From contig OX597816.1 of the NCBI GenBank assembly GCA_951406725.2, forward strand, positions 138,322,001-138,386,000: 64,000 bases of DNA. The letters are read 5' to 3'. A program made the position numbers and the translations under genes. The first letter of the stretch is position 1. The number at the start of each line of letters is the position of its first letter. Under the pieces are notes generated by a model. That model had not been told where the DNA came from. It was given only the letters and a program-made list of their open reading frames with translations, and did not search any database. This DNA is from Octopus vulgaris (lineage: Eukaryota). Below, piece after piece: positions 4,845 through 64,000 of the stretch.

Positions 4845-6020
4845 AACGTCAGCTCATCGGGCAAAATGCCTAGCGACATTTTTTCCGGATTTGTACGATG
4901 TGAGTTCGAATTCTGTCGAGGTAGACCTTGGGTTTCATTCTTCGGGGTATCATGAAATAATTTCCAGTTGATCGACGTTTTTTCTCCTCCAAATTGCTGG
5001 CCTTATGTCAAAATTTGAAGCCATTATTGTTATTATCATTTACGGCGGTGAGCTAGCAGAAACGTTAGCACGCCGGGCAAAATGCGTAGCCGTATTTCGT
5101 CAGCCGTTACGTTCTGAGTTCAAATTTCGCCGAGGTCGACTTTGCCTTTCATCCTTTCTGGGTCGATAAATTAAGTACCAGTTACGCACTGAGGTCGATG
5201 TAATCGACTTAATCCGTTTGTCTGTCCTTGTCTGTCCTTGTTTGTCCCCTCTGTGTTTAGCTCCTTGTGGGTAGTAAAGAAATAGTTATTTCGTCTGCCG
5301 CTACGTTCTGAGTTCAAATTCCGCCGAGGTAGACTTTGCCTTTCATCCTTTCGGGGTCGATTAAATAAGTACCAGCTACGCACTGGGGTCGATGTAATCG
5401 ATTTAATCCGTTTGTCTGTCCTTGTTTGTCTTCTTTGTGTTTAGCCCCTTGTGGGTAGTAAAGAAATAGGTATTTCGTCTGCCGCTACGTTCTGAGTTCA
5501 AATTCTGCCGAGGTAGACTTTGCCTTTCATCCTTTCGGGATCGATTAAATAAGTACCAGCTACGCACTGGGGTCGATATAATCGACTTAATTTGTCTTCT
5601 TTGCCCCCTCTGTGTTTAGCCCCTTGTGGGTAGTAAAGAAATAGGTATTTCGTCTGTCTTTATGTTCTGAGTTCAAATTCCGCCGAGGTCAACTTTTTGC
5701 CTTTCATCCTTCCGGAGTCGAGAAATTAAGCACCGGTTGCATACTGAGGTCGATCTAATCGACTGGCACCCTCCCGCAAAATTTCAGGCCTTGTGCCTAG
5801 TGTAGAAAAGGTTATTTAAGGCGGCGAGCTGATACAATCGTTAGCATGCTGGACGAAATGCGCAACGGTGTTTCACCCGTCGCTACGATCTGTGTTTAAA
5901 TTCCGCCGAGGTCGACTTTGCTTTTCATCCTTTCGGGGTCGATAAATTAAGTACCAGTCGCATGCAAGGGTCGATCTAATTGACTGACCCCACTCCCCAA
6001 AAGTTTCAGACAGAAAGGAT
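4845..6020 (+). repeat. Tandem array of SINE family B, about 180-bp internal units
   Basis: Repeated GTTCTGAGTTCAAATTCCGCCGAGGTCGACTTTGCCTTTCATCCTTTCGGGGTCGAT...AAGTACCAG; the central block resembles the Meta-SINE conserved domain. Confidence 0.85.
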
Positions 6021-18325: not shown

Positions 18326-18638
18326 TTATGTGAAATAGAAAGATGAATAATCTTGTAGTAGATTAATCAAAAGTTTAACCGATACCTTGGTAGCAAAAAT
18401 CACAGCAGTAAACAGCACGGTTGGAGGTACAACCATATGGTGTTGCAACCGAGCGTTGGTGCGGATAATTGAAATTAAAATATTATTGGTGAATTGAAGA
18501 AATGGAGCTGAACGAAGATTGAACAGAAATCGTTTTATTTCATTCTACACGTGCCTTTCGAAACACGTGTAGAATGAAATAAAACGATTTCTGTTCAATC
18601 TTCGTTCAGCTCCATTTCTTCAATTCACCAATAATATT
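18325..18638. mobile_element. Short element in a (TA)n tract with a perfect 75-bp fold-back hairpin
   Basis: Arms 18479-18553 and 18564-18638, loop CCTTTCGAAA; the apex carries the hammerhead half-site CGAAACACGTGTA. Confidence 0.75.
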
Positions 18639-18661
18639 ATATATACATATATATATATACT

Positions 18662-19064: not shown

Positions 19065-20135
19065 GTTTTCTACTCTTGGCACAAGGCCTGAAATTTGGGG
19101 GGATGGGGCCAATCGATTAAATCGAATCCAGTACTTAACTGGTACTTAATTTATCGACCCCGAAAGATGAAAGACAAAGTCGACCTCGGCGGAATTTGAA
19201 CTCAGAACGTAACGGCAGACGAAATACGGCTACGCATTTTGCCCGGCGTGCTAACGTTTCTGCTAGCTCACCGCCTTAAAGGATAATAACAATAATGGCT
19301 TCAAATTTTGGCATAAGGCCAGCAATTTGGAGGAGAAAAAACGTCGATCAACTGGAAATTATTTCATGATACCCCGAAGAATGAAACACAAGGTCTACCT
19401 CGACAGAATTCGAACTCACATCGTACAAACCCGGAAAAAATATCGGCGTGCTAACGATTCTTATTTTTTATTGCTCACAAGGGGTTAAACATAGAGGGGA
19501 CAAAAGAGGACAGACAAAGGGATGAAGTCAATTACATCGACCCCAGTGCGTAACTGGTACTTATTTATGGACCCCGAAAGGATGAAAGGCAAATTCGACC
19601 TCGGCAGAATTTGAACTCAGAACGTAAAGACAGACGAAATACCTATTTCTTTATTACCCACAAGGGGCTAAACATAGAGGTGACAAACAAGGACAGGCAT
19701 AGGTATTAAGTCGATTACATCGCCCCCAGTGCGGGACTGGTACTTAATTTATCGACCCCGAAATGATGAAAGGCAAAGTCGACCTCGGCGGAATTTGAAC
19801 TCAGAACATAGCGGCAGACGAAATACCTATTTCTTTACTACCCACAAAGGGTTAAACACAGAGAGGACAAACAAGGACAGACAAACGGATTAAGTCGATT
19901 ATATCGACCCCAGTGCGTAACTGGTACTTATTTAATCGACCCCGAAAGGATGAAAGGCAAAGTTGACCTCGGCGGAATTTGAACTGAGAAAGTAAACGGC
20001 AGACGAAATACCGCTAAGCATTTCGCCCGGCATGCTAACGTTTCTGCCAGCTCGCCGCCTTAAAACTGGAATACTTATTTCTTTATGACCCGCGGGGGCC
20101 TAAGATAAATGGAACAAACAAAGACAGACAAGGAC
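19065..20135 (-). repeat. Tandem array of SINE family B
   Basis: Multiple reverse-complement family B units. Confidence 0.85.
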
Positions 20136-35565: not shown

Positions 35566-35985
35566 TTATTTCTTTATTGCCCACAAGGGGTTAAACATAG
35601 AGGGGACAAACAAGGACAGACAAAGGGATTAAGTCGATTACATCGGCCCCAGTGCGCAACTGGTACTTAATTTATCGACCCCGAAAGGATGGAAGGCAAA
35701 GTCGACCGCGGCGAAATTTGAACTCAGAACGTAGCGGCAGACAAAATACCTATTTCTTTACTACCCACAAGGTGCTAAACACAGAAGGGACAAACAAGGA
35801 CAGACAAACGGATTAAGTCGATTATATCGACCCCAATGCGTAACTGGTACTTATTTAATTGACCCCGAAAGGATGAAAGCCAAAGTCGACCTCGGCGGAA
35901 TTTGAACTCAGAACGTAGCGGCAGACGAAATACCGCTAAGCATTTCGCCCGGTGTGCTAACGTTTCTGCCAGCTCACTGCCCTAT
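35566..35985 (-). repeat. SINE family B with a tandem internal unit
   Basis: Family B match. Confidence 0.85.
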
Positions 35986-63423: not shown

Positions 63424-63484
<61 letters not shown>

Positions 63485-63647
63485 GTTATCGCCATACTAA
63501 TATGGCATTCTTATAAAAATAAGAAAAAAGCTGTCCGCTTATTAGCTCCATGAGGCCATCGCCTTAAGTTAGCTATTTGATACACAAACTGTATCCATAT
63601 AACCTTCGAACAAGGGAGGTCAGTCGCTCCACACTACTTGACCGGCA

Positions 63648-63689
63648 GCTACAGACGCGTTTCGGGGTATTGCCCCTTTTCAATGCAGC
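63648..63689 (-). ncRNA. Minimal type-I hammerhead ribozyme with a compensated U3-A8 core
   Basis: Minus: GCTGCA TTGAAAA GGGG CAATA CCCC GAAAC GC GTC TGTAGC; 6-bp stem I, 4-bp stem II, palindromic ACGCGT; predicted cut between 63654 and 63653. Confidence 0.8.
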
Positions 63690-63734
63690 GTAGCCAGCCA
63701 GTAGGTGTCGCTTCCGACAATCTCTGTTCGATGG

Positions 63735-63790
63735 TTTTATTTACCTAGTTTCGGTGGAATACATCCACTTGTTTTCAATAATAGAAATAT
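63735..63790 (-). ncRNA. Second hammerhead-like motif (U3-A8), imperfect
   Basis: Minus: CTATTA TTGAAAA CAA GTGGA TGTAT TCCAC C GAAAC TAG GTA AATA; junction pairs imperfect. Confidence 0.4.
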
Positions 63791-64000
63791 TAAAATAACT
63801 AAGTCTCTCTAAAAGAGAACAGCGGCAGCGTTCCCGGAAAATAATAGTTATCGCCATACTAATATGGCATTCTTATAAAAATAAGAAAAAAGCTGTCCGC
63901 TTATTAGCTCCATGAGGCCATCGCCTTAAGTTAGCTATTTGATACACAAACTGTATCCATATAACCTTGTTCGAAGGTTATATGGATACAGTTTGTGTAT

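What the first reader, a model, noticed from the sequence alone, without database searches (positions are those of the whole stretch)
63648..63790. Hammerheads with a compensated U3-A8 core, two per repeat unit
UUGAAAA replaces CUGANGA, so C3U and G8A occur together. Established: positions 3 and 8 form a Watson-Crick pair in the active fold and the U3-A8 swap preserves it. Stems I-III of the 63648 motif are intact and the host element looks young (identical direct repeats), so this reads as a selected variant rather than decay. Standard CUGANGA searches would miss it. A second UUGAAAA motif lies about 90 nt upstream on the same strand and could be the partner for a double-hammerhead fold.
Basis: partly seen in the sequence, partly recalled or inferred. 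Interest (0 to 1): 0.75.

Follow-up and report, generated by a model that had tools for sequence, protein, structure and literature searches.

The report
Retrozyme with one U3-A8 hammerhead
This is one of over a thousand young copies of a protein-free repeat whose unit carries one predicted self-cutting hammerhead RNA with an already published U-A swap in its core, while the proposed second hammerhead is likely only a conserved hairpin beside the point where copying likely starts.

Summary
Partly right. The motif at 63640-63699 (minus strand) is a well-formed canonical type I hammerhead with U3-A8, inside a 362-bp non-coding tandem unit, an animal non-LTR retrozyme. U3-A8 is present in 1162 of 1169 family motifs, and across nine related sequences the helices covary (10 of 17 pairs change on both sides). 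A sister family 89-91% identical to a U3-A8 family has C3-G8; the tree nests it among U3-A8 lineages, so it likely reverted. The swap itself is published (Perreault 2011; about 1,300 Schistosoma Penelope motifs, Cervera and De la Pena 2014). The 'second hammerhead' 95 nt upstream is not supported: it has three core departures here, its GAAA box reads GAATT in 16 of 18 copies of an older family, farther relatives keep only its hairpin, and it cannot form helix III with the first motif. The likely dimer partner is the next tandem copy (palindrome ACGCGU). Insertions show the Penelope footprint: two 3' ends 63 nt apart, (TA)n targets, and one short plus one long end in 37 of 45 inverted loci. Cleavage and circles are untested. 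The scan noted U3-A8 retrozymes before on other DNA.

The parts
63640..63699 (-). Canonical type I hammerhead (HHR1) with U3-A8 core: U3 63683, N7 63679, A8 63678, palindromic helix III ACGCGU 63660-63655, predicted cut 63654/63653
   Evidence: Sequence, fold, covariation across 9 related sequences
63735..63787 (-). Motif 2: hammerhead-like words around a conserved hairpin (63768-63754); likely a cis-element or hammerhead relic, not an active ribozyme
63479..63840 (-). Full 362-bp retrozyme unit, no ORF; its 3' end here is the 'short' end
   Evidence: the circular monomer folds at -121.9 kcal/mol, z -6.5 against 60 shuffles
63778..63840 (-). 63-nt 'tail' (unit 1-63) between the two preferred 3' ends; the distal end falls at U3 of motif 2
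   Evidence: End mapping
63841..63968 (-). 5'-truncated tandem copy (unit 235-362) of the left arm
63965..64000 (+). Start of the inverted right arm (562 bp, runs past the window; partial unit + full unit + 63-nt tail, 'long' end, then (TA)n)
   Evidence: L031 965-1526
63427..63478 (.). (TA)n microsatellite at the insertion site

Best explanation
The locus is a recent 1,048-bp inverted insertion of a 362-bp non-coding tandem repeat (an animal non-LTR retrozyme) whose unit carries one type I hammerhead with a U3-A8 core that is predicted to self-cleave, and a borrowed Penelope-like reverse transcriptase likely pasted it into a TA repeat. Shown: the unit, the family, the hammerhead fold with covariation, the two fixed 3' ends and the TA targets. 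Inferred: tandem transcripts fold two neighbouring HHR1 copies into a double hammerhead through the self-complementary ACGCGU, are cut once per unit, and ligate to a 362-nt circle; U3-A8 keeps the 3-8 Watson-Crick pair. The Penelope enzyme nicks both strands of (TA)n and starts cDNA at two sites 63 nt apart, one per strand, giving two arms that meet head to head. Motif 2 lies just 3' of the distal start and most likely serves as a hairpin for the enzyme or for the circle's fold. It may descend from a hammerhead, but it probably does not cut; a second cut would split the monomer into 89 and 273 nt.
For: U3-A8 in 1162 of 1169 motifs, C3-G8 in 0. N7, the free position, is C in 237. On 9 related sequences 99.3% of cells pair, 10 of 17 pairs change on both sides, pair 3-8 is UA:7 CG:2, helix III stays palindromic in three versions, and the core letters U4 G5 A6 A9 G12 A13 A14 are invariant (relatedness inflates the shuffle test, but slid controls give only 29-51% paired). 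HHR1-HHR1 duplex -7.5 kcal/mol. 37 of 45 inverted loci pair one short with one long end, 0 pair long with long; 81 of 108 3' flanks start with AT repeats. Two internal RT start sites that create the tail, and AT-rich cleavage, were shown in vitro for a lizard Penelope element (PMC11167929). Motif 2: GAATT in 16 of 18 family-D copies where the box was located, out of 32 HHR1 matches; families E-H keep the hairpin without UUGAAAA; 72% of cells pair under a hammerhead fold, with a covariation score not above slid controls.
Against: No cleavage, circle or strand-specific transcript was observed. No autonomous partner sharing sequence with the unit was found: the young RT element beside one copy has no similarity (best E 1.2) and a tail of about 56-59 nt, and 27 of 27 variant-hairpin hits were repeat copies or fragments. 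5' junctions are not enriched at the HHR1 cut site (1 at 186 and 2 at 191 of 108); a circle or an uncut multimer fits this equally, and ribozyme cleavage was dispensable for insertion in PMC11167929. In 73 copies of subfamily C motif 2 has a perfect 8-bp helix I and a 6-bp helix II and folds as a three-way-junction-like shape (z -3.15).
Confidence: 0.8

Rival explanations
1. Both motifs are working hammerheads. Motif 2 is an atypical one (2a and 9a/9b insertions), best formed in subfamily C and perhaps helped by the Penelope protein, and it cuts about 35 nt 3' of the distal start site.
For: UUGAAAA, hairpin, GAAAC and GUA occur in hammerhead order; 2 of 5000 shuffles match a post-hoc descriptor. 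Only 1 change in unit 45-100 between subfamilies 84-85% identical overall. 8-bp helix I in 73 copies. Protein-assisted cleavage is known for a Penelope hammerhead (PMC11167929).
Against: GAAA box broken in family D (16 of 18); core lost in E-H while the hairpin stays; three departures from the core, and 2a/2b insertions impaired cleavage in PMC3088659; helix I closing-pair probability 0.008 in this copy; no helix III with HHR1 (+2.6 kcal/mol).
Confidence: 0.08
2. HHR1 is selected but cutting is not part of mobilisation: uncut multimeric transcripts are the template, and no circle is made.
For: Arms cross the cut site freely. Hammerhead mutants inserted normally in vitro in PMC11167929.
Against: Strong covariation of all helices and of the 3-8 pair; highly self-paired circular fold shared across families; circles shown for coral, mussel and axolotl retrozymes (PMC7229834).
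Confidence: 0.1
3. The unit is the terminal repeat (pLTR) of an autonomous Penelope element, and these are truncated copies.
For: The tail and inversions are pLTR features (PMC8557442).
Against: No locus among 63 distinct ones joined the unit to its own RT ORF; units follow each other directly. The hammerhead is the canonical retrozyme type, not a minimal one.
Confidence: 0.02

Closest known systems
Animal non-LTR retrozymes (Cervera and de la Pena 2020, PMC7229834, parts 2-3 of 6 and passages read; Li, Clavereau and Pollet 2026, 10.64898/2026.07.22.740005, part 1 of 5 and passages read)
   Same: Non-coding tandem unit of 150-450 bp (mussel 350-390), one canonical type I hammerhead with short palindromic helix III, GC under 50%, highly self-paired predicted circle, proposed Penelope mobilisation.
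   Different: U3-A8 core. In the passages searched neither paper mentions octopus, and the 2020 paper does not mention covariation or inverted copies. Circles not tested here.
U3-A8 natural hammerheads (Perreault et al. 2011, PMC3088659, section 8 and passages read; Schistosoma Cercyon min-HHR variant, about 1,300 hits, PMC4209133, parts 1-2 of 4 read)
   Same: Same compensated 3-8 swap, described as natural and as already active in vitro.
   Different: Here it sits in a canonical, tertiary-stabilised retrozyme hammerhead and looks ancestral to a whole clade, with a derived C3-G8 branch.
Penelope-like element insertion footprint (Craig et al. 2021, PMC8557442, passages read; Frangieh et al. 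2024, PMC11167929, parts 1-2 of 4 read)
   Same: Partial tandems, inverted 5'-truncated arm, optional tail between two RT start sites, AT-rich or (TA)n targets.
   Different: No ORF; tail 63 nt rather than 30-40; near-strict pairing of one short with one long end.

Membership tests
Type I hammerhead (HHR1) | Core N3 U4 G5 A6 N7 N8 A9, G12 A13 A14, A15.1-U16.1, H17 with a Watson-Crick 3-8 pair | tested here: met
   UUGAAAA / GAAA / UC; pair 3-8 UA:7 CG:2
Type I hammerhead (HHR1) | Helices I-III with G10.1-C11.1, supported by covariation | tested here: met
   10 of 17 pairs change on both sides; G10.1-C11.1 in 9 of 9
Type I hammerhead (HHR1) | Self-cleavage after H17 | not testable with these tools
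   Only contigs were available
Hammerhead (motif 2) | Core boxes conserved across relatives | tested here: not met
   GAATT in 16 of 18 family-D copies; UUGAAAA absent in E-H
Hammerhead (motif 2) | G10.1-C11.1 next to the core, at most one extra base after A9, none before position 3 | tested here: not met
   A before U3, CAA after A9, C before G12
Hammerhead (motif 2) | Helix I and helix III able to form | tested here: inconclusive
   4 bp here (closing pair P 0.008), 8 bp in 73 subfamily-C copies (P 0.345); no mixed helix III with HHR1
Non-LTR retrozyme | Short tandem non-coding unit with one canonical type I hammerhead | tested here: met
   362 bp, direct tandems, no unit ORF
Non-LTR retrozyme | Dispersed multi-copy mobile family | tested here: met
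   1166 exact motif matches, control 0; 40 full-length 100% matches among the best candidates scored
Non-LTR retrozyme | Highly self-paired monomer | tested here: met
   Predicted circle z -6.5
Non-LTR retrozyme | Expressed as circular RNA | not testable with these tools
   Only contigs of runs with unrecorded library type
Autonomous Penelope-like element | RT and GIY-YIG ORF between pLTRs | tested here: not met
   No own ORF in 63 distinct loci
Penelope-mobilised element | Tail, partial tandems, inversions, AT-rich target | tested here: met
Penelope-mobilised element | Named autonomous partner | tested here: inconclusive
   A young candidate with a similar footprint but no shared sequence

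The most novel reading that the evidence does not exclude
The unit carries a second, same-strand, atypical hammerhead whose core begins exactly at the distal reverse-transcription start. It cuts, in subfamily C or with the Penelope protein's help, about 35 nt downstream, so a ribozyme-derived fold is what the borrowed enzyme docks on and ribozyme processing is coupled to priming.
Probability: 0.08. Interest if true: 0.6.

Novelty: new member of a known kind. Interest (0 to 1): 0.3.

Why it matters
It adds a young retrozyme clade that CUGANGA searches and Rfam miss: in this genome U3-A8 cores are at least as common as C3-G8 ones (1166 in this family plus 820 others, control 50, against 484 for a near-matching C3-G8 pattern, control 38). 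Two young families about 90% identical differ at exactly positions 3 and 8, a natural double revertant in which the rate and fitness effect of the swap can be measured. The paired short and long ends give a concrete test of two-strand priming by Penelope enzymes. None of this changes known chemistry.

Tried and rejected
Rfam scans gave no hammerhead (none among the 150 of 287 rows listed), which reflects model limits and not absence. Expression: no RNA holder listed. Contigs of four runs of unrecorded library type cover parts of the element but cannot show ends, strand or circles; not used as evidence. Mixed double hammerhead HHR1 plus motif 2: rejected on pairing. Autonomous partner: the RT element next to L020 shares no sequence with the unit; a variant-hairpin search returned only repeat copies. 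Its Penelope assignment rests on RT and GIY-YIG-like motifs read by eye and on its pLTR, tail and inversion layout; Pfam gave only a weak RVT_1 match on the C-terminal part (E 0.0017), none on the full ORF, and PDB nothing useful. One search used a structure string that was off by one column and is discarded; one search replaces it, and its sequence-based alignment under-counts the E-H hairpin, so one search is the fairer view of that hairpin. Five of 58 units (rearranged or chimeric) were dropped before subfamily comparison, and two rows (a duplicate and a chimeric join) before the tree. Lunse et al. on dimeric Penelope hammerhead variants (PMC5785218) and Przybilski and Hammann 2007 (PMC1986816) were not held and were not read; no supplements were read, and they may list U3-A8 or insertion variants like motif 2. 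Print searches: hammerhead+U3-A8 (1 paper), hammerhead+C3U+G8A (1), hammerhead+octopus+retrozyme (3), extra nucleotide+G10.1 (1), C3-G8 or tolerance to exchanges (7). None of these listings pointed to this family or to a U3-A8 retrozyme.

Full report
Observation. On the minus strand, 63640-63699 reads as a canonical metazoan type I hammerhead: distal stem, UAC bulge, 6-bp helix I, core UUGAAAA (U3 63683, A8 63678), 4-bp helix II with a CAAUA loop, GAAA, helix III A-U and C-G around GC, triplet GUC, predicted cut 63654/63653. A second UUGAAAA starts at 63778, 95 nt upstream.

Host element. The motif lies in a 362-bp unit (63479-63840) with an identical partial tandem copy. The sequence beyond the window shows an inverted arm: 490 bp left, 562 bp right, 1,048 bp in all, with (TA)n on both sides. 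The genome is a 2.8-Gb animal assembly, and the best 40 candidates scored are 100% identical over 201 bp. Units have no ORF and abut each other. The monomer is predicted to fold as a highly paired circle (-121.9 kcal/mol, z -6.5 against 60 shuffles). This is the description of animal non-LTR retrozymes (PMC7229834).

Is U3-A8 fixed and selected? An exact pattern free at positions 3, 7 and 8 matched 1166 times, control 0. Three copies have C3-A8, three A3-A8, one U3-G8 and none C3-G8, so U3-A8 holds in 1162 of 1169. That alone reflects descent. Selection shows between families. Subfamilies A (this one), B (96% identical) and C (84-85%) differ at the free position 7 (C in 237), turn a G-U of helix I into A-U and swap a G-C for A-U in the distal stem. 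Looser patterns found further families of 357-364 bp, down to about 50% identity, with the same layout. On nine sequences 99.3% of cells pair, 10 of 17 pairs change on both sides, helix III stays palindromic as ACGCGU, ACUAGU or ACCGGU, and pair 3-8 is U-A in 7 and C-G in 2. The C3-G8 families are 89-91% identical to a U3-A8 family and form one branch (97/100) nested among U3-A8 lineages (midpoint root, trait columns not removed). So U3-A8 is likely ancestral here and C3-G8 a reversion.

Novelty of the swap. Natural U3-A8 covariation is stated in PMC3088659 (section 8), which also says such ribozymes were already shown active in vitro. About 1,300 U3-A8 minimal hammerheads of Schistosoma Penelope elements are reported in PMC4209133. 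Earlier notes of this scan record U3-A8 retrozymes, and a C3-G8/U3-A8 sister pair, on other DNA.

Motif 2. In this copy it has an A before U3, CAA between A9 and helix II, an unpaired C before GAAA and a 4-bp A-U helix I (closing pair P 0.008). For it: a descriptor relaxed after the fact to admit it hits 2 of 5000 shuffles; unit 45-100 differs at one base between A and C; 73 subfamily-C copies have an 8-bp helix I and fold as a junction. Against it: in the older family D the GAAA box reads GAATT in 16 of 18 copies where it could be located (32 HHR1 matches examined), and the G pairs into a longer hairpin. Families E-H keep a hairpin at the same place but have no UUGAAAA. Under a hammerhead fold 72% of cells pair, with covariation no higher than slid controls. 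As a double-hammerhead partner it fails: mixed helix III +2.6 kcal/mol, motif 2 with itself +2.7, HHR1 with HHR1 -7.5. I read it as a conserved hairpin, possibly hammerhead-derived.

Mechanism. 3' ends cluster at unit 362 and at unit 63 of the next copy, both ending in CTATTAT-like sequence. Of 63 distinct loci 45 are inverted; 37 pair one short with one long end, 1 is short-short, 0 long-long and 7 have one irregular end; 81 of 108 flanks begin with AT repeats. A tail between two internal RT start sites and AT-rich nicking of both strands were shown for a lizard Penelope protein, which also needed RNA 3' of the start sites (PMC11167929). Motif 2 sits just 3' of the distal start, which fits a docking role (inference). 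The reading that each strand is primed from a different start came as a lead from earlier scan notes and was counted here for this family. A young RT element with a 1,312-aa frame, (TA)n targets and two ends about 56-59 nt apart is a candidate helper, but it shares no sequence with the unit, so the partner is not identified. Cutting, ligation and circles are inferred from PMC7229834; nothing here shows them.

Verdict. A real U3-A8 hammerhead in a new retrozyme family; one ribozyme per unit, not two. Known kind, known variant. The useful extras are the natural revertant pair and the end-pairing footprint. Interest 0.3. The hammerhead numbering and the likeness of the UAC bulge and CAAUA loop to the Schistosoma ribozyme are from recall, not from a call.

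Noticed in passing
L101:2772-7441; L102; G000 hits: Young, abundant Penelope-like element with a 1,312-aa open frame (78 candidates scored, 97-100% identical). Its terminal repeat holds a hammerhead-like motif with C in place of A9, a 6-bp helix II and a weak helix I, and it has two 3' ends about 56-59 nt apart into (TA)n.
   Followed up: partly
L033:1000-6353: A LINE (zinc knuckle ORF1, endonuclease, RT, zf-RVT) is inserted inside a retrozyme copy with unit 118-142 duplicated (25 bp), just upstream of HHR1.
   Followed up: partly
L203-L208 versus L124, L211: Sister 357-360-bp families 89-91% identical differ at exactly positions 3 and 8 (C3-G8 versus U3-A8); C3-G8 looks derived.
   Followed up: yes
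window 63965-63968; L005, L024, L027: The same inversion junction (unit 226/235, at a short palindrome) recurs in three separate loci, and about 18 of 108 5' junctions fall at unit 223-235.
   Followed up: partly
L106, L107, L110, L114, L116, L118: Other U3-A8 hammerhead-like families with A-U-rich helix I and a GUA triplet, probably Penelope terminal repeats; 820 pattern matches against 50 in the control.
   Followed up: no
window 5092-5764, 19462-20012, 35567-35934: Three arrays with a 184-bp period of a dispersed repeat.
   Followed up: no
window 18477-18640: Long near-perfect hairpin of about 164 bp, probably a small inverted-repeat element; the microRNA matches are below threshold.
   Followed up: no
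L031:3036-5612: 859-aa frame with endonuclease and RT motifs read by eye (LINE-like), 2 kb beyond the window end.
   Followed up: no
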